In this document: positions 1 to 64,000 of the stretch, piece by piece
Layout of the letters: every line of letters begins with the position of its first letter
Position numbering within the stretch: position 1 is the stretch's first letter
Assembly: GCA_964016885.1 (NCBI GenBank)
Contig: OZ024741.1
Span: 412,486,001-412,550,000 of the forward strand
Reading direction: 5' to 3'
Length of the DNA: 64,000 nt
Origin: Eledone cirrhosa
Lineage: Eukaryota
The notes under the pieces: generated by a model
Seen by the model: only the letters and a program-made list of their open reading frames with translations
Database searches by the model: none
What the model was told of the DNA's origin: nothing
Translations under genes and position numbers: made by a program

Positions 1-2601
1 CTTGGGTATCCCCTGGCCTACTGTCCCCTCCTTCAGTACAGCTCTGAGCATTGGCTCCTTACTATAGGTCACGTATTTGTATAGGTTGTTTTTCTCCATC
101 TGAACACAGTCCTCTATGCTGATAAGACCTCTTCCACCCTCAGATCTCCTTAGGTAGAGTCTATCGACATCACTCCTCTTGTGGAACATGGTGTAGATAG
201 TCAATAGCTTCCTAGTCTTCCTATCCATTTCTTTTTGTTCAGCAACATTCCATCTCAGAATTCCCGCACTGTACCTAATAATAGACACAGCTCGGGAATT
301 TACTGCGCTTATGGCATTTCTGCTGTTCAGATGTGACTTCAATACGCTCCTTACTCTCCGAATGTATTCAGTTCTTAACAATTCCTTCATTTTTTTGTTC
401 TTTATGCCATCAGCCTCCAGAACGCCCAAATACTTGTATCCTTCCTCAGAGTCAATTTCCTTTATCATCTCACCTGTTGGTATCTGGATCCCGTTACTTC
501 TGCTCAACCTACCCCTCCTCATCACAATGACTCCACATTTACCAATACCAAACTGCATACATATATCACTGCTGAAAATACGGACAGTGTCAACAAGCAC
601 ATCCAACTCCTTCTCACTTTTCCCGAAGAGCTTAAGATCGTCCATGAAGAGGAGGTGATTGATGGTAAGCTCTCCCCTTCCCAACTTGTATCCTGCTCTC
701 ACTTTTCGCAGCATAATGGTCAAGGGCATCAGGGCAAGGACAAACAACAGAGGGGACAGGCTATCTCCCTGGAAGATACCTCTCTTGATCTTCACGCTTC
801 CCAAGGATACTCCAGTTGATGTCAACTCTGTCTCCCAGGACCCCATACTCCTGCCCAGCAACTGTCTGATGTTATCTGCCACCCTGAAGATCTCCAGGCT
901 TTTGGTGATCCAGGAATGAGGCACCATGTCAAATGCCTTTCTGTAGTCTATCCATCCCATGGCAAGATCAGTGTGTCTCCTCCTGCAATTCCCCATTACC
1001 ATCTTATCAATAAGCAACTGGTCCTTTGTACCACGTGACTTCTTTCGGCATCCTTTCTGTTCGTCCGGCAACAAGTTGTTTGTGTGGAGGTGATGGTAGA
1101 TTTCCTCAGACACAATGCTCGTCAACAGTTTCCACATTACGGGCAGACATGTGATAGGTCTATAGTTGGTAACATCATTACCCTTGATTCGGTCTTTCAT
1201 TATCAGAACTGTGGTACCTTTTGTCAACCACTCTGGCACCTCACCCGACACCAAGCAGTCATTGAACATGGCCGTCAGCTTCGGGTGGAGGGATGTTAAA
1301 TGTTTAATCCAATACCCCTGCACACCATCTGGGCCTGGTGATTTCCAGTTGGTTAGTTTTTTGGCTTGCCCCTTAAGAGTTTCAACTGTGATACTCAAAT
1401 CAGTCTGTTGCTGTGCCTGCTCACCGATCTCCCTCTGTACTGTCTCAATCCACCCTGCCTGGGCATTGTGTCTAACATCCTGCTCCCATATTCCTCTCCA
1501 GAATGTTTTAGCTTGTTCCGCCCCAGGGATCAAGTCGGTGCCTCTTTCTTTCCCCTCAAGCTGTCCAAACAGCATCTTCTGGTTGTTGTCGAACATGCGG
1601 TTCTGTTTATACTGACTGACTCTGTTCTCGTATCGCCTGATTTTGGCACTCTTTGCTACAATGCGTTGCTTCAATTCCTCTATGATAATATTTAGCTTTT
1701 TACTCCTAGTTTTGTATTTTATTTCCAGTCTATTTTTAGTGCCTATGTTTTTTAGTGTCCCATTCAGTAGTGACTCAAGCTTTCCTATGTCATTTCTCAT
1801 TTCCCCGATTTGCCCACTCAGTCGCTTCTTCCACCACGGCTCTGCTCTTTCTTGTCTGTTGTTTCCTCTCGCTTTTATACCAAGTAGTTTCCTCACCGTA
1901 TTTGCTGTTGCTTTGAGGATATTGTTGCACTGGTGAAGACTCCTCGCCTCAAGGTATGGGATGACTTTGTTTACCTTAGCTGTTGTTTCTTTTAACTTTT
2001 TCCTGTCTACAAATCTTAGGTTCATAGGTCTCCCACTATCATTGTTCAACTCATCTACCACTAAATTTAGGATGTCAACCGAATCTTGTCCTAGCCCGTC
2101 AGCATTCATCTCCTCAGTGGCCGTATCTCTGTTCCAGGTATTATTTATCTCAGTATTCAGATCATTGTCTGCTTCGGGTGGTTCCTCCGCTCTCAGGACC
2201 TCCTCACCTTCATTTCCCGCCGGCTCGCTTGTCTGGCATACTACACCCGCCATCTCCAAGCCATTCTCTCTGCTCAGTTCCTCCAGTTCCAGCTCGCTTA
2301 TCCACCCATTAGTTCTTATTACCCGAGCCTGCCCGGCCAATTTTTGTTCATCTAATTTAAATAAACCAATCTCGTTCCAGATGTTATGCATCCGTCTCCT
2401 GTAGCCCCTCTCCTTGGGGTTACTTTTCAGGTAGCATTGCATAACAGTTCTATTCAATTCTTTCGTCCAGTTGGTTCTGGCCCCTTTCCTTCTTCTTCTT
2501 CCTCCAACATCAGCAGTATTTCGTTGACAGTCAGGTTCCTGCTGCTGAGCCAGGGGGCACCTGTTGGGTGAGAGTCTGTCACATGACGTTCTAGTCTCCA
2601 T
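1..2601 (-). CDS. Family A RT polyprotein, apparently open from ATG 2601 to the window edge
   Basis: Spot-checked motifs (NWTKEL 2478, PWWKKRL 1839, KSPGPDG 1350, FMDDLK 645, GQGIPK at the edge) are all in one frame. The ORF track shows no stop-terminated minus ORF here, and the lesions of copy A2 are absent. Confidence 0.75.
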   Translation of the reverse strand, partial: METRTSCDRLSPNRCPLAQQQEPDCQRNTADVGGRRRRKGARTNWTKELNRTVMQCYLKSNPKERGYRRRMHNIWNEIGLFKLDEQKLAGQARVIRTNGWISELELEELSRENGLEMAGVVCQTSEPAGNEGEEVLRAEEPPEADNDLNTEINNTWNRDTATEEMNADGLGQDSVDILNLVVDELNNDSGRPMNLRFVDRKKLKETTAKVNKVIPYLEARSLHQCNNILKATANTVRKLLGIKARGNNRQERAEPWWKKRLSGQIGEMRNDIGKLESLLNGTLKNIGTKNRLEIKYKTRSKKLNIIIEELKQRIVAKSAKIRRYENRVSQYKQNRMFDNNQKMLFGQLEGKERGTDLIPGAEQAKTFWRGIWEQDVRHNAQAGWIETVQREIGEQAQQQTDLSITVETLKGQAKKLTNWKSPGPDGVQGYWIKHLTSLHPKLTAMFNDCLVSGEVPEWLTKGTTVLIMKDRIKGNDVTNYRPITCLPVMWKLLTSIVSEEIYHHLHTNNLLPDEQKGCRKKSRGTKDQLLIDKMVMGNCRRRHTDLAMGWIDYRKAFDMVPHSWITKSLEIFRVADNIRQLLGRSMGSWETELTSTGVSLGSVKIKRGIFQGDSLSPLLFVLALMPLTIMLRKVRAGYKLGRGELTINHLLFMDDLKLFGKSEKELDVLVDTVRIFSSDICMQFGIGKCGVIVMRRGRLSRSNGIQIPTGEMIKEIDSEEGYKYLGVLEADGIKNKKMKELLRTEYIRRVRSVLKSHLNSRNAISAVNSRAVSIIRYSAGILRWNVAEQKEMDRKTRKLLTIYTMFHKRSDVDRLYLRRSEGGRGLISIEDCVQMEKNNLYKYVTYSKEPMLRAVLKEGTVGQGIPK

Positions 2602-3976: not shown

Positions 3977-3977
<1 letters not shown>

Positions 3978-4040
<63 letters not shown>

Positions 4041-4048
4041 TGTTATTA
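3978..4048. repeat. (TTA)n microsatellite between A1 and A2
   Basis: Direct reading. Confidence 0.95.
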
Positions 4049-4049
4049 C

Positions 4050-7000
4050 TTTTGAGTCTCAGTCATTGATGTTAGTTAACTGGAAAGTTTTTTGAGATGA
4101 ATATCAAGCCACTACCTGCAGCCTCAGATATTCAGGACGTATCGGAGGGTTCTTGCTGTTCCCAGCAAGCATGCCTTTTGAAGCGTTCCAAAAAGCGTGG
4201 CGGGGCCAATTTGCTTTAACCATCCCTGGAAACCTTTTGAGATAGTCCCTAGTGCGCCTATGACAATCGGGATCACTTTGACTTCATGGCAGTTCCAAAT
4301 CCTTTTTACCTCCCACTTTAAGTCCTGGTATCGGTTAATTTTCTCCCTCTCCTTCTCTTGCACTCTCGTGTCAAATGGGCAGGCCACATCCACAATCAGG
4401 CACGATCTTTTTTCTTTGTCCAAAACCAGCAGGTCAGGTCTATTGTGTTCCAGTTTCATGTCCGCCTGTATCCTAAAATCCCACAGCACCGTCACCTGAT
4501 CGTTTTCTATTACCGCCTCTGGCTTATGCTCATACCACTTCTCAGAATGTGGTAAATTGTTTACTTTGCATAGGTGCTAGTGGATCACCCTGCCCATCGC
4601 ATCATGTCTCCAGCCCTTATAGTGAGTCTGGGCTAGGTGTTTACACTCGGATACAATGTGAGCCACATTCTCCTCTCTCTCTCCACAGTTCCTGCACAGT
4701 GGGCTAGCCTCCTCCTTGTAAATGTGGTGTTTCAACCACATCGTTTTGAGGGCCTGCTCTTGCGCAGCCATTAACATTCTTTCTGTAGCCTGTTTAAGGT
4801 CTCCTCTTTTCAACCAGTTCCATGTCTGTGGATCTCTAAATTCAGTTTTCTCAAAGAAGGTACTATGAAGGGATTTTTCCCGAAGGCTGCTATTTCTCCT
4901 TGATGTTAATTCCTCCTTGGACATCCCCTGGTCTATTGTCCCCTCATTCAGTACAGTTCTAAGCATTGGCTCCTTACTATCAGTCACGTATTTGTGTAGG
5001 TTGTTTTTCTCCATCTGAACACAGTCCTCTATGCTGATAAGACCTCTTCCACCCTCAGATCTCCTTAAGTAGAGTCTATCGACATCACTCCTCTTGTGGA
5101 ACATATTGTAGATAGTCAATAGCTTCCTAGTCTTCCTATCCATTTCTTTTTGTTCAGCAACATTCCATCTCAGAATTCCCGCACTGTACCTAATAATAGA
5201 CACAGCTCTGGAATTTACTGCACTTATGGCATTCCTACTGTTCAGATGTGACTTTAATACGCTCCTTACTCTCCGAATGTATTCAGTTCTTATCAATTCC
5301 TTCATTTTTTTGTTCTTGATGTCATCAGCCTCCAGAACGCCCAAATACTTGTATCCTTCCTCAGAGTCAATTTCTTTTATCATCTCACCTGTTGGTATCT
5401 GGATTCCGTTACTTCTACTCAACTTACCCCTCCTCATCACAATGACTCCACACTTACTAATACCAAATTGCATACATATATCATTGCTGAAAATACGGAC
5501 AGTGTCAACAAGCACATCCAACTCCTTCTCACTCTTCCCGAATAGCTTAAGATCGTCCATGAAGAGGAGGTGATTGATGGTAAGCCCTCCCTTTCCCAAC
5601 CTGTATCCTGCTCTCACTTTTCACAGTACACTGGTCAGGGGCATCAGGGCAAGGACAAACAACAGAGGGGACAGGCTATCTCCCTGGAAGATACCTCTCT
5701 TGATCTTCACGCTTCCCAAGGATTCTCCAGTTGATGTTAACTCTGTTTCCCAGGACTTCATACTTTTGCCCAACAACTGCCTGATGTTATCTGCCACCTT
5801 GAAGATCTCCAGGCTTTTGGTGATCCAAGAATGAGGCACCATGTCAAATGCCTTTTTGTAGTCTATCCATCCCATGGCAAGACCAGTGTGTCTCCTCTTG
5901 CAATTCCTCATTACCATCTTATCAATAAGTAACTGGTCCTTTGTACCACGTGACTTCTTTCGGCATCCTTTCTGTTCGTCCGGTAACAAGTTGTTTGTGT
6001 GGAGGTGATGGTAGATTTCCTCAGACATAATGCTTGTCAACAGTTTCCACATTACGGACAGACATGTGATAGGTCTATAGTTGGTAACATCATTACCCTT
6101 GATTCGGTCTTTCATTATCAGAACTGTGGTACCTTTTGTCAACCACTCTGGTACCTCACCTGACATCAAGCAGTCATTGAACATGGTTGTCAGTTTCGGG
6201 TGGAGGGATGTTATGTTTTCAATCCAATACCCCTGCACACCATCTGGGCCAGGTGATTTCCAGTTGGATAGATTTTTGGCCTGCCCCTTAAGAGTTTCAA
6301 CTGTGATACTCAAATCAGTTTGTTGGCGTGCCTGTTCACTGATCTCCTTCTGTACTGTCTCAATCGACACTGCCTGGTCATTATGTTTAACATCCTGCTC
6401 CCATATTCCTCTCCAGAATGTTTTAGTTTGTTCCGCCTCAGGGATCAAGTCGTTGCCTCTTTCTTTCCCTTCAAGCTGTCCAAACAGCATCTTCTGATTG
6501 TTGTCGAACATGCGGTTCTGTCTATACTGGCTGACTCTGTTCTCGTATCGCCTGATTTTTGCACTCTTTGCTACAATGCGTTGCTTCAGTTCCTCTATGA
6601 TAATATTTAGCTTTTTCCTCCTAGTTTTGTACTTTATTTCCAGTCTATTTTTAGTGTCTATGTTTTTTAGTGTCCCATTCAGTAGGGACTGAAGCTTTCC
6701 AATGTCATTTCTCATTTCCCTGATTTGACCACTCAGTCGTTTCTTCCACCAAGGCTCTGCTCTTTCTTGTCTGTTGTTTCCTCTCGCTTTTATACCAAGT
6801 AGTTTCCTCACCGTATTTTCTGTTGCTTTGAGGATATTGTTGCACTGGTGAAGGCTCCTCGCCTCAAGGTATGGGATGACTTTGTTTACCTTAGCTGTTG
6901 TTTCTTTTAACTTTTTCCTGTCTTAGGTTCATAGGTCTCCCACTATCATTGTTCAATTCATCTACCACTAAGTTTAGGATATCGACCAAATCTTGTCCTA

Positions 7001-9100
7001 GCCCGTCAGCATTCATCACCTCAGTGGCCGTATCTCTGTTCCAAGTATTATTTATCTCAGCATTCAGATCATTGTCTGTTTCGGGTGGTTCCTCTGTTCT
7101 CTCGACCTTTTCACCTTCATTTCCCACTGGCTCGTTTGCCTGGCATACTCCACTCTCCATCTCCAAGCTAATCTCTCTGCCCAGTTCCTCCAGTTCCAGC
7201 TCGCTTATCCACCCATTAGTTCTTATTAGCCGAGCCTGCCCGGCCAGTTTTTTTTCATCTAATTTAAATGGACCAATCTCGTTCCAGATGTTATGCATCC
7301 GTTTCCTATAGCCTTTCCCCTTGGGGTTACTTTTCAGGTAACATTGCATAACAGTTCTATTCAATTCTTTCGTCCAGTTGGTTCTTGTCCCTTTCCTTCT
7401 TCTTCTTCCTCCGACACCAGCAGTATTTGGTTGACAGCCAGGTCCCTGCTGCTGAGCCAGGGAGCACCTGTTGGGTGAGTGTCTGTCACATGACATTCTA
7501 GTCTCCATTTCATCGTTATTCGAACTGTTTAGGTTCGACATTTAAACACTCTTATCGAGGATTGGCGAATGTATGGTTACATAACCACCGGTGAATTACT
7601 TGTCTCCGGTGGTTTCGTCACTCCACGTGACTTTTGTCTGGCATTATCACGCTGTAGACGAACCCAAACAAACAAACAAACAAACAAACAGGCAGAAAAA
7701 ACCCCCAAAATGAATAAGGATAAGTTTCATTGTAATGTAGTGTTTGAATGTCTGACTTAGTTTTCCCCTTCCCTTCTCTGTCCGTCCGTTTGTTTTTCTC
7801 TTTTTTTTTTATTTCCTTTACGTTTTTCGTTGTTGCTGTGCTGCTTTGATTTTTATTTATTTTTATTTATTTTTTTATTTTTATTTTGACCGGGTCATCA
7901 ATTGAGTCTATTTATATATTTTGATGTTTTCCTCTTTTAGTGGGAATTCTACAATGTAGCAGGGGATAGCGGGAGAGAATAGCGGTGGTAGTGATATTGA
8001 GGCCGCAGCGGCGGTGGTGGTGGCGGTGCTGTGCTAGCAGCAACTAGCAGGAGGTAGTGGGAGAGAATAGCGGCGGTAGCGATAGTGAGGCAGCGGTGGT
8101 GGTGATGTGGTCGTATTACTGTAGTGATGGTGTTGAAGTTGGAGTAGAAATTTGAGTCGACTTGACCAGAGCTTTCATCGAGGTAGTGGTGGTGGTATTG
8201 GTGGTGAAATTATCTTTAGTGAAATTATCGTTAGTCGCGTATATGTGTTGACATTTACCGATAATATTGGAATTAAACATTTTGTTAAAACTAAAACTTG
8301 ATTTTGATTATTGTTTTTTTTAATTTTGACCGGGTCATCAATTCAGTCTATTTATATATTTCGATGTTTTCCTCTTTTAGTGAGAATTCTACAATGTAGC
8401 AGGGGGTAGCGGGAGAGAATAGCGGCGGTAGTGATATTGAGGCAGCGGCGGCGGTGGTGGTGGCTGTGCTGTGCCAGCAGCAACTAGCAGGATGTAGTGG
8501 GAGAGAGTAGCGGCGGTAGTGATGATGAGGCAGTGGTGATGATGTGGTCGTATTACTGTAGTGATGGTGTTGAAGTTGGAGTAGAAATTTGAGTCGACTT
8601 GATCAGAGTTTTCATCGTGGTAGTGATGGTGGTATTGGTGGTGAAATTATCTTTAGTGTGAAATTATCGTTAGTCGCGTATATGTGTTGACATTTATCCA
8701 TAATATTGGAATTAAACATTTTGTTAAAACTAAAACTTGAGGCAATAGTAATAGTAATTATTATTATTATGCTGAGATTGGTGGTGGTGGTGGTGAAATT
8801 GCCGTTATCGGGCTGTTGTGTTTAGTGTACACAGAGGGGTGATAGGGTAGGTGGTGTATCTAGTTTCTGATGTTGGTGAAATTGCTGTTATTTGGCTGTT
8901 CTATATAGTGTAGACAGAGGGGGTTTTCTTCCATTTATAACCATTTTCTTTTTGAATATAAAATGTGTAATACAAAATTGAATATTTGAGCGATATAACA
9001 ATATATTGTGGATCCGAAATTTTTGGGACTCAAGCTGGATGTTTTATGCAACATTTGTACTAAGAATTGTTATTTCACAATTGATTTAAATATGTCAAAA
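4050..9100 (-). mobile_element. R4/Dong-type retrotransposon, family A copy A2, near full length, disrupted
   Basis: ORF pieces 7541-6891, 6811-5621, 5617-4577, 4495-4124 with RT, CCHC knuckle (CRNC..H..C), RHD motif and RLE nuclease (NRPDLLV..IVDVACP..EK); both ends on TTA tracts. Confidence 0.92.
7884..8740. repeat. ~440 bp tandem duplication in the A2 leader
   Basis: ttttgaccgggtcatcaatt starts at 7884 and at 8324, with colinear downstream sequence. Confidence 0.9.
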
Positions 9101-9116
9101 AATTATTATTATTATT

Positions 9117-12100: not shown

Positions 12101-12428
12101 TATCTATGAGTTTGTGTTCGTATGTTTAATATATATTTTTATTATATTTTGTGTTGACATATTCCCGTAAAATTGGAATTAAACATTTTTTTAAAATTTG
12201 AGTCAATAATAATAGTAATTCTATAATAGTAATTCTATAATGTGGTAGCAGCAGCCAGCGGGGAGATGTGGGAGACAGTAGCGGCGGTATCGATACTGAG
12301 ACAGTGATGGTGGTGATGTCGATACCGAGGCAGTGGTGGTGGTGATGTGATCGTATTACTGTAGTGATGGTGTTGTAGCGGTGGTAGCAATGAAGGAGTG
12401 GTGGCGGCGGTGATGGGATAGTGGTGGG
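9117..12428 (-). mobile_element. R4/Dong-type retrotransposon, family B copy B1 (internally deleted, leader at 11799-12428)
   Basis: HLFYMDDLKLF, CRVC..H..C, RHD, NRPDIILKD..IDMSVP; the ORF jumps at ~11798 into leader sequence matching ~47690-48070. Confidence 0.88.
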
Positions 12429-12429
12429 A

Positions 12430-12580
12430 TGTCAGCCCTTGTGGCCAATAAAGAAATCATTATTATTATTATTATTGTTCTTTGAGTCTCAGTCATTGAT
12501 GTTAGTTAACTGGAAAGTTTGTTGAAATGAATATCAAGCCACTACCTGCAGCCTCAGATATTCAGGACGTATCGGAGGGT
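12430..12580. mobile_element. Miniature junction: Tx1 3' tail (+), TTA tract, family A 3' tail (-)
   Basis: gtcagcccttgtggccaataaagaaatc-(att)n followed by ctttgagtctcagtcattgatg...atcggagggt, matching 4050-4150. Confidence 0.85.
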
Positions 12581-12590
12581 TATTATTATT

Positions 12591-14983: not shown

Positions 14984-15012
14984 ACCTTCCCTCTCTCTCT
15001 TAGCTTACCAAT

Positions 15013-19817: not shown

Positions 19818-19842
19818 TATTATTATTATTATTATTATTATA

Positions 19843-47338: not shown

Positions 47339-47340
<2 letters not shown>

Positions 47341-51225: not shown

Positions 51226-51266
<41 letters not shown>

Positions 51267-52455
51267 TTGCCTGTTTGTTTGTTTGTTTATTTATGTTCGT
51301 CTACAGCGTGATAATGTCACACAAAAATCACGTGGAGTGACGGAACCACCGGAGACGATGATTCACCGGTGGTTATGTAACCATACATTCGCCAATCCTC
51401 GATAAGAGTGTTTAAATGTCGAACCTAAACAGTTCGAATAACGGTGAAATGGAGACTAGAATGTCATGTGACAGACTCTCACCAAACAGGTGCTCCCTGG
51501 CTCAGCAGCAGGGACCTGGCTGTCAACCAAATACTGCTGGTGTCGGAGGAAGAAGAAGAAGGAAAGGGACCAGAACCAACTGGACGAAAGAATTGAATAG
51601 AACTGTTAAGCAATGTTACCTGAAGAGTAACCCCAAGGAGAAAGGCTATAGGAAACGGATGCATAACATCTGGAACGAGATTGGTCTATTTAAATTAGAT
51701 GAACAAAAATTGGCCGGGCAGGCTCGGGTAATAAGAACTAATGGGTGGATAAGCGAGCTGGAACTGGAGGAACTGAGCAGAGATATTAGCTTGGAGATGG
51801 AGAGTGGAGTATGCCAGGCAAACGAGCCAGTGGGAAATGAAGGTGAAGAGGTCGAGAGAACGGAGGAACCACCCGAAGCAGACAATGATCTGAATGCTGA
51901 GATAAATAATAACTGGAACAGAGATACGGCCACTGAGGAGATGAATGCTGATGGGCTAGGACAAGATTTGGTTGATATCCTAAACTTAGTGGTAGATGAA
52001 TTGAACAATGATAGTGGGAGACCTATGAACCTAAGATTTGTAGACAGGAAAAAGTTAAAAGAAACAACAGCTAAGGTAAACAAAGTCATCCCATACCTTG
52101 AGGCGAGGAGCCTTCACCAGTGCAACAATATCCTCAAAGCAACAGCAAATACGGTGAGGAAACTACTTGGTATAAAAGCGAGAGGAAATAACAGACAAGA
52201 AAGAGCAGAGCCTTGGTGGAAGAAACGACTGAGTGGTCAAATCAGGGAAATGAGAAATGACATTGGAAAGCTTGAGTCTCTACTGAATGGGACACTAAAA
52301 AACATAGACACTAAAAATAGACTGGAAATAAAGTACAAAACTAGGAGGAAAAAGCTAAATATTAGCATAGAGGAACTGAAGCAACGCATTGTAGCAAAGA
52401 GTGCAAAAATCAGGCGATACAAGAACAGAGTCAGCCAGTATAGACAGAACCGCAT
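51267..52455 (+). mobile_element. Family A copy A4, 5' ORF part only
   Basis: ORF 51416-52501 matches the A2 N-terminus, then switches to Tx1-derived sequence. Confidence 0.88.
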
Positions 52456-52574
52456 CTTTCAACAAAATGCTGGGAAGAGAGCACTTCCTTTTCTACCCTG
52501 ATTTTCCTTTAAGACGAGCACTTACCTCTTAGGTGATGCCCTGATTAACTTTTTCAAATAATAATAATAATAAT

Positions 52575-55500
52575 GATTTCTTTATTGGCCACAAGGGCTG
52601 ACATCAAGAAAAACATTACAGACGGCACAGGACGGTACGATGTGGGTTTTGTGTAAATATTTTTATTATTTATATAAGAAAAGAAGAAAAAAGGACATAG
52701 AAACATATATATATATAAACAATAAAAATGAAAATTGAAACAATGAAAAATTCCCCAATAGGGGGGAAACCTCCGAGGGTTACTCGTGGCGAAAACCACA
52801 CAAAAGACCACGGCCACCCAGACCACCAGGGCAAGCGTCCTCTCTCAATTTTTCCATTTCTCAAACTACAGACGTATATTCAGAGTGGTCCCGTTCACTC
52901 GGACCATTATCGCTACATTCACCCACCTTTCAACAAACTTGCTGAAGGCAGCACTTGCCTCTCCACCCTGATTTTCCTCTTCAAGTGAAACTTGAAAAAG
53001 TTAATTAGGGATTCGCCGAAGAGTAAATTGTCTGTCTTTAACCCTTTTAACCTTGTCCACCACACAATCTCTTTCGCCATGGCCACCAGGCAGATGAAAA
53101 CCATCTGCTCTTCCTCCTCGAAGGAAGACGGCGAGACCATCTGCACAATGGACTCAGTCGACAACCGGATCCGTCCTACACGCGACAGCAACTGTTCGAC
53201 ATAGCTCCACAAGTCAGCAATGCTCGGGCACTGAACGAGTGCGTGCACGACGGTTTCGTCGCTCTGCGCACATCTCGGACAGGCTCGGCTGACGGCACTT
53301 ACGTGCCTGTAGAGCTTATCACGAACCGGCAGGGCTCCCCGGTAGCACTGCCAGGCCAGGGATTTTGGGAAGTTATCCATAGGCCCTGGGCTGAAAGTTC
53401 TCCGGAAGAGAGCAAACAGCTGATCTTCTTCGACGCCCAGGATCTCTCCAAGAATGTCGTCGCTCTTCCCCTCTATAGAACGCCGAGGTGGATGTTCCAC
53501 CGATACTGGTGCCCAGCTGGCAGAGGACAGTGAGCGCCTGGAGACATTCCAGTTTCCAAGCGCTATCCCTCGGTCTTTTTTTGACCCAGGACTGCAGCTT
53601 CGTCAAGGAGACGAGTTGTGGGAAAACGTGCCTGGCGAACGGCGACCACACCTGTTCACCATCAAGGAAGCACCAGAGATGTCGCAGCCTCAGCGCATGT
53701 TTGCGCATCATCAGCCATGGCATGCCCAGTCCTCCACGCAACGGGTGTTGACAGCAGATGGATCGTCTGACCATGGGAGCGCGTCCCTTCCACAAAGAGC
53801 GGAAGAGGAGGCGCTCCATTTTGGTGAGAGTTGGGCTGGAGCAAGGGACGACGGTGAGGCGGTAGCAGATGGCGGATGCGATGTACGCATTGGTCACCTC
53901 CGCCCGGCCTTTCAGGGACAGCTTTCTCTCGGCCCATTTCTGGGTGAGGAGGCCACCCTGCTCGTCACCTCGTTCCAGTTTTTCTCCATCTGGAGGTCCG
54001 GTCCGAACCAAACCCCGAGCAATTTAACCGGTCCGTCCGTCCAACGCCCCACGACGCTGTCGGACGGCATGGACTTGGCTCTCCAGGTGCCGAGCTGCAA
54101 GCCCACCGACTTTTCCTGGTTTATCTTTGATCCTGTCACCGCTTCGTATTCCTTGAGAGCGGTGCCAAGCATCTGGACGAGTCTGGTGATCGACACCACC
54201 ACGGTGACGTTGTCAGCGTAAGCCGATTCGGATTTCCCGCATCCTAGTTCGCGTGGGAAGCCCCTCATCGCCCCCAGTTGGTGCAGTAACGGCTCGAGAG
54301 CCAATACGTACAAGAGAGACGAGAGGGGACATGATGCTGAACGGCTGCGACAGGTGACCGTTCACCCTCACAACTGAGCAGATGTCGCTGTACATTGCTG
54401 CGATCCAACCCGTGAAAACGGGCCCGAAACCGGATGCCTCGAGGACCGCCGCCAGGTACCGATGGTCGACCCTATCGAATGCTTTGGACTGATCCAAGTT
54501 GATCAGGGCACCACCCTTGCCAGGTTCCTTAACCACCCTCTCTATGATGTATCGCATGAGGTGGAGGTTGTCGTGTATGGATCTGTCCGGAATGGCGCAT
54601 GTCTGCGCCTCTTCCACCAGACCCTTGATGACAAGCGCCAACCTCGTTGCTAACACCTTGGCCAAAATCTTGAACTCTGCGTTTTACAGGGTTATGGGCC
54701 TGAAATTATCGATAACATCCCCCTTGTTCGGGTCTTTTCTCAGCAACGCCACTGCTCCCAGGCTCACAAAACTGGGAATGCTCCCGTTCTACTGCCAGTT
54801 GCAGTAGACGCCTGCCTAGAGGTCACCGAACAAGTCTGGCATAAATGCATAAAGCTCGTAGGGCAGAACATCCAAACCTGGCGATTTACCCCTTGTGCAG
54901 TTAGCCATCGCTTCCCTTTTTTCACCGGCTGTTATTGGCTTTTCGCAACACTGTCTTGCGGTCGTCGAGAGCCGAGGCAGTCCGTCGAGGTATGCACTGA
55001 AGTCCATGCCCCGATCCGGGCCCCTGCCGCTCCCTAACAGTTCAGCAAAGTACTGCTGAAAAGCTTCACACATCCGCTCGGGTTCGAGCATCACGCACCC
55101 GTTTTGGTCAGACAAAGACCGAATTGTAGCTTTGTTGCTACGTCGCGCCACTGCCACCCGGGCCCATTGGACGGCTTTTGTCCCCTCGTGTTTCAGAGCA
55201 CGCGCTCTAACTCTGACAATGCAGCCTTCGTGTTTTGCGTTGAAGAATTGGTCGAGTTCCAATCTCGCCGCAAGCACGTCGGTTGCGATGCCTGTCCTAA
55301 ACGCCTCTTCTAGCTTTCTGACTAGCTCTCCCTCTACTCTATTTTCCTCTATCACTACTCCTTTGCTAAACCTAATCGACTCTACTTTAATTGCCCTTTT
55401 CAGGGCGAACCACCACCTGTTGTTGACGATCGCTTCCGTCAAAGCCCGCTTAACTAATACGCTAATCCGGTCTCTGTAGGCTTTGCGTGCCGGGAAAGAC

Positions 55501-57895
55501 GCGTTCAGCTTCCAGTAACCAGGCCCTTGTCTATGAAGTCTGTCTATGTCGATCTCACAGATCACAAATTTGTGGTCTGTGTAGTCGACTATTTGAAATT
55601 GTGGACAACTTATACTAGCCTTATCTAGTTCTCTGCAGAATACCCTATCGAGATACGATCTGGATGACCCGATGCGGTTTGTCCATGTCCACATTGGCAC
55701 ATTCGGGTGATCCAGTCGATACCTGTCAGACAATTCAAAACGTCTGAGCATGTTGGTGAGGCTATTGCACCCTCCTCCCCTATCCACTAGCCCCACACGA
55801 TCCCAGCGTGCATCCAAGATACCGTTCCAGTGGCCCACTAACACTAAAGAGCGGGACGTTCCAATAAAGGTCTCTAGACGTCTGAAGAAATCTGGCCGTC
55901 CTGCCCCTGTTGGGGCGTAGACGGCTACTAGCCTGGGAGATGCGTATACATCGTAGCCGCCGAAGATCGGTGCGAAGGCTTGTGCTTCGGAGATTTTGGT
56001 TTCACTGATGGCCACAACATCTATGTTTAGTGACCTGAGGTCGTTGAGCAGGTGACCCTGCTTCCAAGATGACCCCAGGCCACGTGCATTCATACTGCCT
56101 ATTCTGAGTACGGCCATGTTGGATGAGAAACGGGGCAAGTGAGAAAGGGTCACTTACCTTGTTCGTGTGGTGAAGGGACAGTAGAACCGTCCCTTTCGAT
56201 GGTCATGGGTGTTTCCAAGAGGATGTCAGTGTATATCCTCTTGGTAACCGACCCTCTGAAGTCTCCAACTGCGTTGAGGAAGTTTTGTTTTAAAGGTTTG
56301 TACTGTTCTATTGAGATTTCAATGATGCTTATGTTTGTCGGGAGAGTTCTTGGTGTTGGTGGGGTGTAGTAGTTTTTTTTCTGTGATGTCTGTGTGCTGC
56401 TTTATATATTGCATGAGTTCTTTTTTTGCCATGTTTATGGCTGTGTACTTTTTGGGGGGAGGGGTGATTTTGTTGCTGTTTTCTTCTTGTTGCTGTTTGG
56501 TGTGTGTGTCTTGTGTTTGCGTTGTTGGTGTTTTTGGTGATGCTGGTGGTGGTGTGGTTGTTGTTTTCAGTGGTGCTTTTGGTGGTGATGGTGGTGATGT
56601 TGCTGCAAATTCCCTTGCTGCCTTTACCCCTCTTTGTATGCCTTCGCTTTTGGAGGGTGAATCTAAGGTTTTTTTTCTTTTTTTCTTTTTTTTTGTGGCA
56701 GACCGTAGTGGAGCCCTCTTCGGCAATTTTGTTGCTGGGGTAGCTACTTCAAATGTAGCTATTGGTGTTGCCGCCACTGATGATGCTGCTTTAGTCGTCC
56801 GTGGCCTTGGTACGGGTGCTACGGACGTTGCCCTCCTACTCACCGTGGAAGGGGCTTCTTCGTTTGTTGCCTGCCCCGTTCTTGGTAGCAGCGGACCAGG
56901 TATTGGAACGAGAGGGGCTTTCTTCGCTGACTTCTGCGGACAAAAGTCCCTGAGGTGAACCTTCGACCCACAGAGATAACATTTTGGCCGTCTTCCTTCT
57001 ACACTTATAGGGAGTTGGAGTCCTTCCTCGGTGTCTATGATATCGGGGATAGCGTCGATACATTCCTGGTCAGTTTGTATAAGCATTTGCATGCCTATAC
57101 CTGACCAGTTCTCTCTCCCTATTGGCGAAAAGTACGTCTACTGTGGCGTACTTTCTGCCTCGGGTGATGTGGGTTTTGCGTGCCCAGACGCACCCCAAGG
57201 CCTTTTGGATTTGAACCTCCGTGGCTCTCTCCACTCGATGTGAGATTTTGCTTGCGGTGCGGTAAGTCACCGTCCGTAGCTGCTGGTCCTTGAAAAAATC
57301 GGGTGGAGGTTTCAGCGAAACTCTATTTGCGCTTCTTGTCACTATGGCCCTTGCGACTGCCATTTCCTCCTCTGTGACTAACACTGTCTCGATATTTCGG
57401 GCGACACCTGCAAAAGAAGTGGTCCCTTTTTCAGCAGCACCACTATTGCTGCCGTTACTGGTCTTACTGGTGGTGTTGAGATCGCTATTACAGGTATCGG
57501 TGTCATTGTTGTTGTTTTCGTTGGTACAGTTGTTGGTGTTGTTGTTGTTGTTTTCGTTGATACTGTTGCTGTTGTTACTGTTATTGTGGCTGTTGTTATT
57601 ATTGTTGTTTTTGTTGATACTGTTCCTACTATTATTGTTGTTGTGGCTGTTGTTATTGTCATTGTTATTGTCTTTCTCGACCTTACCGCTGTTATTTTTG
57701 TTATTGTCGTTCTCGACTTTACCGCTGTTATTTTTGTTGTTGCTGTTGTTATTGATGGTGTTGTTGTTGGTGTTGTTGTTTGTGTTATTGTTGGTGTTGT
57801 TTGTGTTAGAGATATTTGTTAATTTTAAATCTGTAACAATCTTCTTTTCCTTTGTAATATTTTCGTTTATATTTATCTCCGCTGGAACGCTGTCT
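52575..57895 (-). mobile_element. L1/Tx1-type retrotransposon T3, lacks 5'UTR, frameshifted
   Basis: ORF1 Asn-rich with CYLCGSKVHLRDFC; ORF2 from ATG 56117 with APE and RT motifs; Tx1 tail at 52575. Confidence 0.9.
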
Positions 57896-57912
57896 ATAAT
57901 AATAATAATAAT

Positions 57913-59740
57913 GATTTCTTTATTGGCCACGAGGCCTGACATCAAGAAAAACATTACAGGCGGCACAGGACGGTACAGGACGGTACGATGTGGGTTTTGT
58001 GCGTGTAAATATTTGTTATTATTTATATAAGAAGAGAAAAAAAGGATATAGAAACATATATATATATATAAACAATAAAAATGAAAATTGAAACAATGAA
58101 AAATTCCCCAATATAAAAAAAATAAAATAAAAGGATTTGGAACTGCCATGAAATCAAAGTGGTCCCGATTGTCATAGGCGCACTAGGTACTATCTCAAAT
58201 ATATATAAACAATAAAAATGAAAATTGAAACAATGAAAAATTCCCTAATAGGGGGGAAAAGTGTCTGTCTTTAACCCTTTTAACCTTGTCCACCACACAA
58301 TCTCTTTCACCATGGCCACCAGGCAGATGAAAACCGCCTGCCCTTCCTCCTCGAAGGAAGGCGGCGAGACCATCTGCACAATGGACTCAGTCGATAACCG
58401 GATCAGTCCTACACGCGACAGCAACTGTTCGACATAGCTCCACAAGTCAGCAATGCTCGAGCACTGAACGAGTGCGTGCACGACGGTTTCGTCGCTCTGC
58501 GCGCATCTCGGACAGGCTCGGCTGACGGCACTTTCGTGCCTGTAGAGCTTATCTCGAACCGGCAGCGCTCCCCGGTAACACTGCCAGGCCAGGGATTTTG
58601 GGAAGTTATCCATAGGCCCTGGGCTGAAAGTTCTCCGGAAGAGAGCAAACAGCTGATCTTCTTCGACGCTCAGGATCTCTCCGAGAATGTCGTCGCTCTT
58701 CCCCTCCACTAGTCCTCTATAGAACGCCGAGGTGGATGTTCCACCGATACTGGTGCCCAGCTGGCAGAGGGCAGTGGGCGCCTGGAGACATTCCAGTTTC
58801 CAAACGCTATCCCTCGGTCTTTTTCTCACCCAGGACTGCAGCTCCGTCAAGGAGACGAGTTGTGGGAAAACGTGCCTGGCGAACGGCGACCACACCTGTT
58901 CACCGTCAAGGAAGCACCAGAGATGTCGCAGCTTCAGCGCATGTTTGACCATCATCAGTCCTCCACGCAACGGGTGTTGACAGCAGATGGATCGTCTGAC
59001 CATGGGAGCGCGTCCCTTCCACAAAAAGCGGAAGAGGAGGCGCTCCATTTTGGTGAGAGTTGGGCTGGAGCAAGGGACAACGGTGAGGCGGTAGCAGATG
59101 ACGGATGCGATGTACGCATTGGCCACCTCCGCCCGGCCTTTCAGGGACAGCTTTCTCTCGGCCCATTTCCGGGTGAGGGAGGCCACCCTGCTCGTCACCT
59201 CGTTCCAGTTTTTCTCCATCTGGAGGTCCGGTCCGAACCAGACCCCGAACAATTTAACCGGTCCGTCCGTCCAACGCCCCACGACGCTGTCGGACGGCAT
59301 GGACTTTCCTCTCCAGGTGCCGAGCTGCAAGCATGCCGACTTTTCCTGGTTTATCTTTGCTCCTGTCACCGCTTCGTATTCCTTGAGAGCGGTGCCGAGC
59401 ATCTGGACGTGTCTGGTCATGTCGTCGACGTAAGCCGACTTGGATTTACCGCATCCTAGTTCGCGTGGGACGCACCTCATCGCCCCCAGTTTGTGCAGTA
59501 ACGGCTCGAGAACCAATACGTACCCAGCATTCAGACAGACGCGGTCAGCCAACGTATGTTTCCAAGAGGATGTCAGTGTATATATATTTTTGGTGATGCT
59601 GGTGGTGGTGTGGTTGTTGTTGGCGGTGGTGCTTGTGGTGGTGATGGTGATGGTGGTGGTGTTGCTGCAAGTTTCCTTGCTGCCTTTACCTTTCTTTGTG
59701 TTCCTTCGCTTTTGGAGGGAGAATCTAAGGTTATTTTTCT
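57913..59740 (-). mobile_element. Rearranged T3-like Tx1 copy T4
   Basis: Tail at 57913; ORF2 C-terminal half 58260-59520 joined to ORF1 scraps at 59557-59740; family A fragment inside the 3'UTR. Confidence 0.85.
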
Positions 59741-59746: not shown

Positions 59747-61108
59747 GGTCTCTTGAGGTCACTGGTTGTGACTTGGTGATAACTCGTATGAACATAAAGC
59801 AAGATAAATGCAACTGTAATAATAATAATAATAATAAAGGGGAAAGGGGGGAGGGAAAGGATAAGGAAGGAATGTTACCGCAGAGTAAGAGCAATCTTAA
59901 GAACGGAATTGAATGCAAGGAATAGGATCGATGCCATAAACACGCTTGCCATACCAGTAGTAACCTACAGTTACAATGTCATCAACTTGTCAAGCACAGA
60001 GATCCGTAGGCTCGATACAAAAATTAGAAAATTCTTAACCATGCACAGAATGCATCACCCTAAGGCAGATACAGATAGAATATATCTCCCTAGGAAACAG
60101 GAGATATATTCTATCCAGTTAGATATTGCGTTGAAAACTGCAACAATTGGATTATCTACATATCTAAGGGAATCACATAATTGGATGATCAAACTCGTTT
60201 TGAAACATGAAAGCATCATAAAAATCATACTCCATTACAAAAGATGCACAAAGATAGAGTAATGGACTACAAATTTCAGAAGTCCCATTTACTGCTGAAA
60301 TGGAAAACACAAAAAAAGCAAAGCAGGTAAAAGTAACTGCAAAGAAAGAACTGCTACAGAAACTGGCTAAGAAATGGCAAGAAAAGCCTCTGTATGGAAA
60401 ATACCCAGAAAGAGCTAACAATCCTGATGTTGACAAAACTTTAACCCATCAGTGGTTGGCATCCTCTGGACTGAAATCGGAGACTGAAGGACTGATTATA
60501 TCGGCACAAGATCAGTGTCTGCCAACAAAAAATTACCAAGCCAACATAATAAAAAATGGATGCAACCCATTATGCCGTGTATGTAAAAAGATCACATCTC
60601 AATCTTGTGGAATTTTAGCATCCAAACAGACCGAAAAATAGATGCAAATAGACCTGATATAATACTGAAGGACTTTAAAAAGAGGGTATGCCTGCTAATT
60701 GATATGTCCGTTCCAATAGACAAGAATTTATCTATAAAAACATTTGAAAAATTGAGCAAGTATAAGGACCTGGAGATAGAAATTGGAAAAATGTGGAAAT
60801 TGAGAACTAAAACAATACCAGTGGTTGTAGGCGCTCTAGGAATGATACCTAAGCCGTCTAATGATTACTTATCGCAAATTCCAGGAAACCCACGTATAGG
60901 AGAAATACAAAAGATAGTAATAATGGGAACTGCCCATATACTAAGGAAGATTCTGTCAATATAAGTACATCACAAGTCTAAACACCTAAAGATGCATGTG
61001 TGTGTATGTATGTTCTTTCTTGAACATGGCGGACCTTGTTGTCTCTTGAGGTCACTGGTTGTGACTTGGTGATAACTCGTATGAACATAAAGCAAGATAA
61101 ATGCAACT

Positions 61109-61110
<2 letters not shown>
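59747..61110 (+). mobile_element. Family B 3' tail fragment (59747-59817) plus 5'-truncated copy B4 (~59850-61110)
   Basis: Matches the B2 reverse complement, with an internal deletion; ends on (AAT)n at 61111-61164. Confidence 0.88.
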
Positions 61111-61164
<54 letters not shown>

Positions 61165-61166
<2 letters not shown>

Positions 61167-64000
61167 TTTCTTTATTAACCACAAGGGTTTACATAAAGTA
61201 GACATTAAGGACAGTGCAGGACAATGCAGGACGGTACAAATGGGCATTTCTGCGTGTAAAAAAAAACAAAAACAGAGGATGTAACAAAAATAACAATGAA
61301 AATAACAATGAAAAATTCCCCAATAGGGGGGAGACTTCGGAGGGACATTTGTGGAGAAAGCCCAGTAAAAAGCCACAATGACCCTGACCACCAAGGCAAG
61401 TGCCCTCTCCCAGTTTTCCACCTTTAGTTTACAGATATATACTCAGAGTCGGCCCATTCACTCGGGCCATTCTTGCTTCTCTCACCCATCTTTCAACAAA
61501 ATGCTGGGAAGAGAGCACTTCCCTCTCTACTCTGATTTTCCTTTTCAAATGAAATTTGAAAAAGTCAATCAGAGCATCACCGAAGAGGTAAGTGCTCGTC
61601 TTCAGCCCTTTCAAACGTGTCCACCATACTATCTCTTTCGCCATGGCCACCAGACAGATAAAAACTGCCTGCCCTTCCCGGCTAAAGGAGGAGGGCGGGG
61701 CAATCCTCACGATGGACTCAGATGATAGCTGGATCCGTCCTAAACGCGACAGCAGGTGTTCGACATAAACCCACAAGTCAGCAATTTTCGGACACTGGAC
61801 GAGTGCGTGCAGGACGGTTTCGTCGCCCTGCGCGCATCTCGGACATGCCCGGCTGACGGCACCTCCATGCCTGTAGAGTTTATCCCGAACTGGCAAGGCT
61901 CCTCGGTAGCACTGCCAGGCCAGAGATTTCTGGAAGTTGTCCATAGGCCCTGGCCCGAAAGTTCTTCCGAAGAGATTGGCTAGTTGATTTTCGTCGACGC
62001 CTAGAGTTTCCCCAAGTACGTCGTCGCTCTTCCCCTCCACTAATCCTCTATAGAACGCCGAGGTGGAGTTTCCACCGATCACATTGCCTGATTGGTCGAG
62101 GGCTGTGAGCGCCTGAAGACATTCCAGTCTCCAGGCGCTCCCTCTCGGTCTTCGCTTGACCCAGGACTGCAGCTCCGTCAAGGAAACGAGCTGGGGAAAA
62201 ACGCGTCTAGCAAACGGCGACCACACCTGATCACCGTCGAGGAAGAGGTGGAGATGTCGTAGCCTGAGCGCGTGCCTGCGCATCATCAGCCACGGCATGC
62301 CCAGCCCTCCACGTAGCGGGTGTTGACAACAGATGGACCGCCTGACCATCGGAGCACGTCCCTTCCACAAAAAGCGAAAGAGCAAACGCTCCAGCGCAGT
62401 CAGGCGAGGCTTAGGACAAGGTACGACGGTTAGGCGGTAGCAGATGACAGACGCGATGTACGCGTTAGCCACCTCCGCTCGACCTTTCAGGGATAGCTTC
62501 CTCTCCGCCCATTTCTGGGTGAGAGAAGCCACCCTGCTCGTCACCTCGTCCCAGTTTTTGTCCGTCTGGAGGTCCGGACCGAACCAGACCCCTAGCAATT
62601 TAACCGGTCCGTCCGTCCAGCGCCCGACGACGCTGTTGGACGGCATGGACCTGCCTCTCCAGGTGCCGAGCTGCAGGCCCACTGACTTTTCCTGGTTGAT
62701 CATTGCTCCTGTCACCGCTTCGTATTCTCTTAGTGTAGTGCCGATCGCCTCGATGTGTTTGGCGTTCGACACCACTACGGTGACATCGTCCGCATATGCT
62801 GACACGGATCTTCCGCATCCTAGTTCGCGCGGGACTCCCCTCAACGTCTCCAGTTTGTGCAGTAATGGCTCGAGAGTCAATACGTACAAGAGGGACGAGA
62901 GGGGACATCCTTGGCGGACCGAACGCATGATGTTGAACGGTTCCGACAGGTGACCGTTCACTCTCACCACAGAGCAGATGTCGCTGTGCATGGCAGCGAT
63001 CCAGCCTCTGAAGACGGGCCCAAAGCCAGCCGCCCTCAGGACTGCCGCTAGGTAACGATGGTCGACCCTATCGAAAGCTTTCGACTGATCTAAATTGATC
63101 AAGGACCCACCCGTGCCAGGTTCCCTAGCTACCCTCTCTACGATGTATCGCATGAGGTGGAGGTTGTCGTGGATGGATCTGTCGGGAATGGCGCATGTCT
63201 GCGCCTCTCCCACCAGACCACCAACGACAAGCGCCAACCTCTTTGCTAGCACCTTGGCCAAAATCTTAAACTCTGTGTTTAGCAGAGTTATGGGCCGGAA
63301 ATTGTCTATGTTATCCCCCTTGTTCGGATCCTTTCTCAGCAGTGCCACCGCTCCTCGGCTCACAGAACTGGGAATTCTCCCGTTCTGTTGCCAGTTGCAG
63401 TAGACGTCCGCCAAGAGGCCTCCGAACAAGTCTGGCATCTGTACGTAAAGTTCATAGGGCAGACCATCCAAACCAGGCGATTTACCCCTTGTGCAGCCAG
63501 TCATTGCCTCCCGTACTTCAGCGGCTGTTATCGGCTTTTCGCAACACCTCGCCTCAGTGGCCGAGAGCCGCGGCAGTCCGTCGAGGTAGACACTAAAGTC
63601 CATCCCTCTACCCGGCCCGCCGCTGCCCCCGAACAGCTGAGCGAAGTGTCGCTGAAAAGCTTCACACATTTGCCCGGGATCGAGTAGCATGCGCCCGTCG
63701 TGGTCCACCAAAGACCGGATCGTGGCTTTGTTGCCACGACGCGCCTCCGCCACTCGGGCCCATTGAACGGCTTTCGTCCCCTCGTGTCTGAGAGCACGCA
63801 CCCTAGCTCTGACAACGCAGCCTTCGTGCTTTGCATTGAAGAATTGGTCAAGGGCCAATTTCGCCGCAAGCACGTCGGTCGCAATGCCTTTACTAAGCGC
63901 CTCGTCTAATTTTCTAACTAGTTCTCCCTCTGCTCTATTTTTCTCTATTGCTAAAGCCTTACTAAACCTAATCGATTCTATTCTAATCGCTCTTTTCAGA
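61165..64000 (-). mobile_element. L1/Tx1-type retrotransposon T5 (T2 subfamily), 5' part off window
   Basis: Near-identical to T2 ORF2 and 3'UTR. Confidence 0.92.
61429..63999 (-). CDS. T5 ORF2 RT and C-terminus, uninterrupted to the window edge
   Basis: 814 aa ORF with AYADD and CPRC..H..C; the frame stays open upstream to 63999; T2's stop codons are sense codons here. Confidence 0.88.
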   Translation of the reverse strand: MKRAIRIESIRFSKALAIEKNRAEGELVRKLDEALSKGIATDVLAAKLALDQFFNAKHEGCVVRARVRALRHEGTKAVQWARVAEARRGNKATIRSLVDHDGRMLLDPGQMCEAFQRHFAQLFGGSGGPGRGMDFSVYLDGLPRLSATEARCCEKPITAAEVREAMTGCTRGKSPGLDGLPYELYVQMPDLFGGLLADVYCNWQQNGRIPSSVSRGAVALLRKDPNKGDNIDNFRPITLLNTEFKILAKVLAKRLALVVGGLVGEAQTCAIPDRSIHDNLHLMRYIVERVAREPGTGGSLINLDQSKAFDRVDHRYLAAVLRAAGFGPVFRGWIAAMHSDICSVVRVNGHLSEPFNIMRSVRQGCPLSSLLYVLTLEPLLHKLETLRGVPRELGCGRSVSAYADDVTVVVSNAKHIEAIGTTLREYEAVTGAMINQEKSVGLQLGTWRGRSMPSNSVVGRWTDGPVKLLGVWFGPDLQTDKNWDEVTSRVASLTQKWAERKLSLKGRAEVANAYIASVICYRLTVVPCPKPRLTALERLLFRFLWKGRAPMVRRSICCQHPLRGGLGMPWLMMRRHALRLRHLHLFLDGDQVWSPFARRVFPQLVSLTELQSWVKRRPRGSAWRLECLQALTALDQSGNVIGGNSTSAFYRGLVEGKSDDVLGETLGVDENQLANLFGRTFGPGPMDNFQKSLAWQCYRGALPVRDKLYRHGGAVSRACPRCAQGDETVLHALVQCPKIADLWVYVEHLLSRLGRIQLSSESIVRIAPPSSFSREGQAVFICLVAMAKEIVWWTRLKGLKTSTYLFGDALIDFFKFHLKRKIRVEREVLSSQHFVERWVREARMARVNGPTLSIYL

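What the first reader, a model, noticed from the sequence alone, without database searches (positions are those of the whole stretch)
1..64000. Two mirror-polarity arrays in which RLE (Dong) and APE (Tx1) retrotransposons share (TAA)n targets in strictly opposite orientation
Seen: in 1-27.1 kb the tracts read TTA on +, all family A/B copies are minus, and all Tx1 and SINE copies are plus. In 47.3-64 kb the tracts read AAT and the Dong and Tx1 orientations flip. Known: Dong (R4 clade) targets TAA repeats, and the Tx1-clade Kibi/Koshi elements target TC/TTC repeats; I do not recall a TTA-targeting Tx1. Inference: two unrelated endonucleases nick opposite strands of one microsatellite, each insertion leaves targets on both sides, and self-growing mixed arrays form with convergent tail-to-tail junctions that could yield dsRNA or piRNA.
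Basis: partly seen in the sequence, partly recalled or inferred. Interest (0 to 1): 0.75.

Follow-up and report, generated by a model that had tools for sequence, protein, structure and literature searches.

The report
Two retrotransposons split one microsatellite's strands
Two unrelated kinds of jumping gene sit in the same TAA/TTA repeat facing opposite ways, here and across this genome, and pile into 10-40 kb stacks, likely because each starts copying on a different strand and leaves more repeat behind; that the two stacks mirror each other looks like chance.

Summary
Observation confirmed, and it is a genome-wide rule. In 1.6 Mb of DNA from this probably octopod genome, Dong-like (RLE) copies touch a tract as (TAA)n in 252 of 252 contacts, Tx1-like (APE) copies as (TTA)n in 167 of 169, a tRNA-type SINE as (TTA)n in 82 of 82. 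TTA is a Tx1 target, not only a tail: 30 of 30 full-length 5' ends follow (TTA)n, and duplications starting TTAT flank Tx1 copies (9-13 nt) and SINEs (median 15 nt). The mirror symmetry is not special: neighbouring clusters have either polarity. Opposite-strand first nicks are inferred from target-primed reverse transcription; dsRNA/piRNA is untested. Closest precedent is SART/TRAS (opposite orientations in one telomeric repeat, both APE). I found no TTA-targeting Tx1 in the papers searched; Repbase was not searchable. The scan noted the same system three times before, elsewhere in this genome. New variant of a known kind; moderate interest.

The parts
1..3976 (-). Dong A copy with true 5' end at 3976; 1.2 kb 5' UTR (2770-3976), ORF from 2634; continues to about -872
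   Evidence: RVT_1; 5' UTR joined to Dong A ORF in 30 of 30 loci
3977..4036 (+). (TTA)20, Dong head-to-tail junction
4041..9101 (-). Dong A copy, nearly full length, with stops; CCHC-type finger and RPD..D..P RLE motif at C-end
9103..9117 (+). (TTA)5, Dong B 3' end to Dong A 5' end
9118..12427 (-). Dong B 3' body (9118-11801, internal deletion) fused to a Dong-type 5' UTR piece (11805-12427)
12429..12474 (+). 31-nt Tx1 3' stub plus (TTA)5
12481..12584 (-). Dong A 3' stub
12591..12783 (+). tRNA-type SINE plus (TTA)6; TTA on both sides
12786..18715 (+). Tx1a, full length: ORF1 with CCHC knuckle, ORF2 APE-RT (broken)
18716..18730 (+). (TTA)5, Tx1/Dong tail-to-tail junction
18735..19817 (-). 5'-truncated Dong A
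19817..19879 (+). (TTA)21, Dong/Tx1 head-to-head junction
19882..25353 (+). Tx1b, full length, APE-RT-zinc finger (broken)
25354..25377 (+). (TTA)8, Tx1/Dong tail-to-tail junction
25378..26826 (-). 5'-truncated Dong B
26827..27057 (+). SINE piece, Tx1 3' stub and (TTA)11; end of left array
47278..47337 (+). (TAA)20; start of right array
47340..51225 (+). Dong B with nearly complete 5' UTR (holding a SINE relic at 48123-48185) and an internal deletion at 50412
51227..51265 (+). (TAA)13, Dong head-to-tail junction
51272..52458 (+). Dong A piece, truncated at both ends
52453..52559 (-). Tx1 stub with 5' inversion (52511-52559 reads plus)
52559..52573 (+). (TAA)5
52575..57896 (-). Tx1c, 5'-truncated within ORF1
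57897..57911 (+). (TAA)5, Tx1 head-to-tail junction
57913..59740 (-). rearranged Tx1 pieces, with a 71-nt plus-strand Dong A piece at 58129-58199
59748..61109 (+). Dong B 3' stub, (TAA)7 at 59817-59837, 5'-truncated Dong B
61110..61163 (+). (TAA)18, Dong/Tx1 tail-to-tail junction
61164..64000 (-). Tx1 with an open 856-aa RT-zinc finger stretch; runs on to a (TAA)15 tract at 67.2 kb

Best explanation
Each array is a pile of insertions by two Dong-like RLE families, several Tx1-like APE families and a SINE into one TAA/TTA seed, with polarity likely fixed because Dong is primed from the T-rich strand and Tx1 and the SINE from the A-rich strand. Shown: the polarity rule, TTA or TAA at both ends of copies, and 8-22 nt duplications that begin TTAT at Tx1 and SINE insertions. 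Inferred: first-strand nick on opposite strands (from target-primed reverse transcription); Dong adds (TAA)n with its 3' tail; the SINE uses Tx1 proteins; each insertion splits a tract and leaves tract on both sides, so targets multiply where they already are and the seed's orientation is inherited by the whole array. Separate seeds have independent orientation, which gives the mirror look.
For: Tract contacts: Dong TAA 252 of 252, Tx1 TTA 167 of 169, SINE TTA 82 of 82. In 59 evenly spaced 10-kb stretches, 8 of 13 tracts of >=5 units touch one of these elements and 11 of 11 contacts obey the rule. 5' ends: Tx1b 30 of 30 after >=4 TTA units, Dong A 28 of 30 after >=3 TAA units; opposite tract dominant in 0 of 150 ends. 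3' ends: Dong A 29 of 30, Dong B 30 of 30 TAA; Tx1a 25, Tx1b 20, Tx1c 26 of 30 TTA. Of 42 Tx1 copies with both ends in view, 26 repeat the 3' flank at the 5' side; 4 of these hold non-repeat letters (9-13 nt). 21 of 30 full-length SINEs have a duplication, median 15 nt, starting A|TTATT. One Dong B sits in (GAA)n with (TAA)n only at its 3' end (L337). SINE and Tx1 last 25 nt are alike (1-2 in 10,000 random 25-mers score as high).
Against: No enzyme assay. 16 of 42 Tx1 copies show no duplication at the 5' side. Most SINE ends lie outside tracts (34 of 57 with no TTATTA) and 10 of 30 Tx1b 3' ends have under 3 units, 2 of them (TTC)n, so 'TAA-specific' overstates it. No Dong duplication could be measured, as its flanks are pure repeat. 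SINE/Tx1 tail likeness is weak by local alignment (p about 0.02, no better than internal windows), and one Dong A end scored at 26 in 10,000. Targeted loci were picked by likeness to window copies, may overlap, and favour young copies.
Confidence: 0.75

Rival explanations
1. Polarity is set by base pairing, not by the nucleases: either strand may be nicked, but only the strand complementary to the RNA's 3' tail (UUAUU for Tx1/SINE, UAA repeats for Dong) primes reverse transcription.
For: Both element ends run straight into the target letters; the conserved A before TTATT could belong to the element end. Pairing of repeat-like RNA with the target is proposed for SART1 (PMC7265360, passages).
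Against: Tx1 3' ends join TTC and one-unit sites with no added TTA (L024, L025, L006, L013); a SINE duplication can start with GTTATATA (L137). Endonuclease swaps move SART1/TRAS1 specificity (PMC7265360, passage).
Confidence: 0.2
2. The tracts are only element tails, and arrays build up passively in tolerant, low-recombination DNA.
For: Orphan tracts are short (47 of 53 under 5 units); long tracts are mostly beside elements.
Against: Full-length and truncated copies have the repeat at the 5' side, with duplications; passive build-up would not give 501 of 503 contacts of one polarity.
Confidence: 0.03
3. The right array is an inverted duplicate of the left one, or the mirror pair is a functional unit.
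For: One 3.4-kb Tx1-TTA-Dong stretch matches in reverse at 95.5%.
Against: That is ordinary family divergence; the tract lengths differ (8 and 18), element order differs, and this junction type is common (27 in targeted loci). Six clusters in 264 kb read TTA, TTA, TTA, TAA, mixed, TTA.
Confidence: 0.02

Closest known systems
SART1 and TRAS1 of Bombyx mori (R1 clade)
   Same: Two non-LTR families insert into one simple repeat in opposite directions and form arrays (PMC7265360 and PMC10088271, passages).
   Different: Both are APE elements of one clade and sit at telomeres in (TTAGG)n; here an RLE and an APE clade share an interstitial microsatellite at many loci, with a SINE.
Dong (R4 clade): Dong, DongAg, DongBg, Darwinula Dong1/2
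   Same: One ORF, RT then finger then RLE, (TAA)n at both ends; TAA targeting is reported for insects, molluscs and cnidarians (PMC3812793, PMC7998251, passages). Dong-R4 is known and recently active in octopus (PMC13282606, first third and passages).
   Different: Two families only 34-37% identical in protein share one 5' head; GAA tracts are also used; no mixed antiparallel arrays in the passages read.
Kibi, Koshi and crocodilian Tx1 families (Tx1 clade)
   Same: Two-ORF APE elements inserted in microsatellites that read T-rich on the sense strand: (TC)n, (TTC)n, (TTCC)n, (TTTC)n (PMC4494074, passages and one section). Two copies here join (TTC)n.
   Different: Main target here is A|TTATT / (TTA)n, not listed in the passages read; descent from Koshi not tested.
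SINEU / Tx1-Mar pair of crocodilians
   Same: A SINE shares target preference with a Tx1 family that likely moves it (PMC4494074, passages).
   Different: Here the head looks tRNA-type and the target is a short AT motif, not a transposon.
R1 and R2 in 28S rDNA
   Same: An APE and an RLE element share one repeated target (recalled).
   Different: Different sites, same orientation, gene target (recalled).

Membership tests
Dong / R4 clade | Single ORF: RT, C-terminal CCHC-type finger, restriction-like endonuclease; no APE | tested here: met
   RVT_1; finger and RPD..D..P motifs in Dong A and B (motif form recalled); RT nearer R2 (1e-25) than L1 (1e-13)
Dong / R4 clade | Inserted in (TAA)n, sense strand | tested here: met
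   252 of 252 contacts
Dong / R4 clade | RT tree places it with named R4/Dong elements | not testable with these tools
   No named R4/Dong reference among the 120 listed relatives
Dong / R4 clade | HDV-like ribozyme at the 5' end (PMC3774820) | tested here: inconclusive
   No Rfam ribozyme hit; a rough recalled descriptor found nothing in the Dong A head
Dong / R4 clade | N-terminal SANT/Myb-like domain (PMC7998251) | not tested
   Pfam gave no hit on the N-terminal frames; profile-profile search not run
Tx1 clade (L1 group) | Two ORFs; ORF1 with CCHC knuckle; ORF2 APE-RT-zinc finger | tested here: met
   Exo_endo_phos, RVT_1, zf-RVT; knuckles and APE motifs; ORF1 look-alikes CCHC/ZCCHC3-type at 0.91-0.93
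Tx1 clade (L1 group) | RT nearer L1 than R2 | tested here: met
   1e-44 against L1 ORF2, 1e-21 against R2; APE best hits are L1 endonucleases
Tx1 clade (L1 group) | RT tree with named Tx1, Kibi, Koshi, apart from L1 clade | not testable with these tools
   No named Tx1-clade reference among the 120 listed relatives; the Tx1 label rests on structure and target preference
Kibi / Koshi | Target (TC)n or (TTC)n | tested here: not met
   (TTC)n directly after 2 of 30 Tx1b 3' ends and none seen in the 60 Tx1a/Tx1c ends; TTA dominates
SART/TRAS-type opposed pair | Two families, one repeat, opposite orientation | tested here: met
SART/TRAS-type opposed pair | R1 clade, telomeric (TTAGG)n | tested here: not met
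   Target is TAA/TTA at interior sites on many contigs; clades differ
piRNA cluster / dsRNA source | Small RNAs from both strands | not testable with these tools
   Needs small-RNA libraries of this organism

The most novel reading that the evidence does not exclude
An RLE clade and an APE clade have divided the two strands of one microsatellite and form a self-building guild: Dong makes the repeat, Tx1 and its SINE exploit it, together about 4-6% of the genome, and the thousands of convergent Tx1/Dong junctions act as self-made dual-strand piRNA sources by which each clade's read-through silences the other.
Probability: 0.2. Interest if true: 0.75.

Novelty: new variant of a known kind. Interest (0 to 1): 0.45.

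Why it matters
It adds a likely unreported target (A|TTATT, (TTA)n) to the Tx1 clade and extends the SART/TRAS kind of strand sharing to two endonuclease classes and an interstitial repeat. It explains a visible share of this genome (Tx1 2.6%, Dong 1.4%, SINE 2.0% of a 590-kb sample) as positive feedback on targets, a candidate cause of the unexplained transposon hotspots reported in octopus (PMC13282606). It makes one open question directly testable on a symmetric substrate: whether nuclease strand choice or RNA-primer pairing sets insertion orientation.

Tried and rejected
Idea that the G-rich/C-rich pieces at 2770-3976, 7700-9101, 11805-12427 and 47340-48100 are Tx1 heads in the wrong orientation: rejected; they are Dong 5' UTRs and do not align clearly to Tx1 heads (scores 32-45 against shuffle maxima 40-48). 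Mirror pair as inverted duplication: rejected. Rfam at E<=1: only AT-repeat matches to miRNA models below threshold, no ribozyme. Rough HDV descriptor: nothing in four heads. Expression: no RNA holder listed, which says nothing either way; contigs of four runs cover both elements but cannot show strand or level and none spans the junction. Dong C-terminal piece found no solved structure at E<=1. Dong target duplication could not be measured. Look-alikes in other genomes among earlier notes: none. Literature searches for a TTA/ATT-targeting Tx1 or mixed antiparallel arrays found none; Repbase, Dfam, Kojima and Fujiwara 2004 and the supplement and tree figure of PMC4494074 were not seen and may list such a family.

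Full report
Setting. The window is G000:C2:412,486,001-412,550,000 of a 3.0-Gb genome. The closest named relative of the Tx1-like ORF2 is an Argonauta hians protein at 69% identity, so the host is probably an octopod (inference).

Observation. All 9 tracts of four or more units in 1-27.1 kb read TTA on the plus strand, all 6 in 47.3-64 kb read TAA, and none lie between. A BLAST library cut from window copies covers about 100% of the left and 98% of the right array and 1.3% of the spacer. Left: Dong A and B all minus, Tx1 and SINE all plus. Right: Dong all plus, Tx1 minus except 49 nt. Those 49 nt (52511-52559) are the inverted half of a Tx1 stub whose other half reads minus, as in a twin-primed insertion (interpretation from established L1 biology). 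The 1.2-1.4 kb low-complexity pieces ahead of the Dong ORFs looked at first like Tx1 heads in the wrong direction; they are Dong 5' UTRs: 30 of 30 loci join one to the Dong A ORF, and the related piece at 47340 joins Dong B in 20 of 20 loci. The arrays extend beyond the window, to about -9.8 kb and 67.8 kb.

The elements. Families A and B have one ORF with RT, a CCHC-type finger and an RPD..D..P motif, RT nearer R2 than L1, and are 34-37% identical to each other. The Tx1-like copies have ORF1 with a CCHC knuckle and ORF2 with APE, RT and a finger, RT nearer L1. No named Dong, R4, Tx1, Kibi or Koshi protein came back among the 120 listed hits of either search, so the clade names rest on structure and target, not on a tree.

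Genome-wide test. For each of seven element ends I took the 30 best loci (the window's own copy among them). 5' ends: Tx1b 30 of 30 follow at least 4 TTA units, Dong A 28 of 30 follow at least 3 TAA units (median 20). 3' ends: Dong A 29 of 30 and Dong B 30 of 30 TAA; Tx1a 25, Tx1b 20, Tx1c 26 of 30 TTA; the opposite tract dominated in 0 of the 150 ends scored. A census of every tract of four or more units in the window, 200 kb of flanks, 590 kb of evenly spaced stretches and 765 kb of targeted loci gave Dong TAA 252 of 252, Tx1 TTA 167 of 169, SINE TTA 82 of 82 (seven loci duplicating the window or flanks were left out, other loci may overlap, and targeted loci favour young copies). In the evenly spaced sample alone 8 of 13 tracts of five or more units touch an element and 11 of 11 contacts obey the rule.

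Target or tail. Of 42 Tx1 copies with both ends in one stretch, 21 have pure TTA on the 5' side, 5 have a duplication with other letters (4 clean ones of 9, 11, 11 and 13 nt; L028 is doubtful), and 16 have none, often abutting a truncated neighbour. At such sites the 3' flank may hold only TTATT, and 2 of 30 Tx1b ends join (TTC)n directly, so Tx1 does not bring a fixed TTA tail. Of 30 full-length SINEs, 21 have duplications of 8-22 nt (median 15); A at -1 in 20, then T 21, T 20, A 20, T 20, T 19 of 21; 14 lie in three or more TTA units. Only 256 of 1,045 ATTATT sites in the sample lie in such tracts, so tracts are preferred but not required; 34 of 57 sampled SINE 3' ends have no TTATTA. Dong differs: nearly every 3' end has a long TAA run, and one Dong B sits in (GAA)n with TAA only downstream (L337), which suggests that Dong adds repeat (inference from one locus plus the tract lengths; orphan tracts are mostly 3-4 units). 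The SINE's last 24 nt resemble the Tx1 ends (anchored score reached by 1-2 in 10,000 random 25-mers; one Dong A end by 26 in 10,000), but the local test was weak; the shared A|TTATT site is the better argument that Tx1 moves it.

Mechanism. In target-primed reverse transcription the nicked strand is complementary to the sense strand at the 3' junction (established knowledge). Dong is then primed from the TTA strand, Tx1 and the SINE from the TAA strand. A duplication of 9-15 nt copies three to five units, so one tract becomes two, and the orientation of the seed passes to every later insertion. Whether the nucleases or RNA-primer pairing choose the strand is not settled by sequence. Separate seeds are independent: six clusters in 264 kb read TTA, TTA, TTA, TAA, mixed, TTA, so the mirror look of this window is what two unrelated seeds give half of the time. 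Tail-to-tail Tx1/Dong junctions are real and common (4 of 12 junctions in the window, 27 of 153 in targeted loci), but Tx1 carries AATAAA just before its end and I have no RNA evidence.

What is known. TRAS1 and SART1 insert in opposite directions into one telomeric repeat (PMC7265360, passages; PMC10088271, passages). Dong targets TAA in insects, molluscs and cnidarians (PMC3812793, PMC7998251, PMC3774820, passages). Tx1-clade microsatellite targets in the passages read are TC, TTC, TTCC, TTTC (PMC4494074, passages and section 15; supplement not held). Octopus repeat papers list Dong-R4 and L1-Tx1 but, in the passages read, say nothing of targets or mixed arrays (PMC13282606 first third and passages; PMC9115989, PMC8967140 passages). 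Eight searches found no TTA-targeting Tx1; Repbase and Kojima and Fujiwara 2004 were not seen. Three earlier notes of this scan describe the same system at other places in this genome; they are not independent support.

Verdict. A real, genome-wide strand partition of one microsatellite by an RLE and an APE clade with a SINE. It works like SART/TRAS but is not a member of it. New variant of a known kind; interest 0.45.

Noticed in passing
window 3976-3600 (minus) and 47340-47930 (plus): Dong A and Dong B proteins are only 34-37% identical, yet full-length copies of both begin with the same 5' word and share a 72-80% identical head, suggesting exchange or capture of a 5' UTR between distant lineages.
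   Followed up: partly
window 48123-48185: A SINE 3' relic is fixed inside the Dong B 5' UTR (seen in the 4 other loci printed); L369 has a further whole SINE inserted beside it.
   Followed up: partly
window 29543-32160: A third R2-group-like LINE family (28-30% identical to Dong A/B) ends in (CATA)n in 20 of 20 loci; 5 of the 8 visible 5' junctions also show CATA units. Possibly a (CATA)n-targeting family.
   Followed up: partly
L061, L085, L088 (Dong A 5' junctions): Short copies of the element's first bases are interleaved with TAA units upstream of the 5' end, as if the polymerase slipped or jumped there; tracts at full-length Dong 5' ends are the longest class (median 20 units).
   Followed up: no
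L024, L025, L337, L372, L387: Both clades also touch the TTC/GAA repeat with the same polarity rule (Tx1 TTC, Dong GAA), the Koshi target.
   Followed up: partly
window 34122-35987 (+): RT-like frame followed by a GIY-YIG-like frame, by eye a Penelope-like element; no Pfam hit of use.
   Followed up: no
window 41548-46061 (+): Broken Helitron (Helitron_like_N, PIF1).
   Followed up: no
window 33178-33377: Solitary minus-strand SINE outside the arrays with a clean 14-16 nt duplication starting TTATT.
   Followed up: yes
L146, L147, L150, L151, L154, L156, L158-L160: Copies with the Tx1b-type 3' end carry a different 5' head from the window's Tx1b copy; heads and bodies appear to recombine among Tx1 families.
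   Followed up: no
search listing: 36 of 41 listed matches were on the minus strand; other searches were balanced, so probably an effect of how candidates were picked.
   Followed up: no
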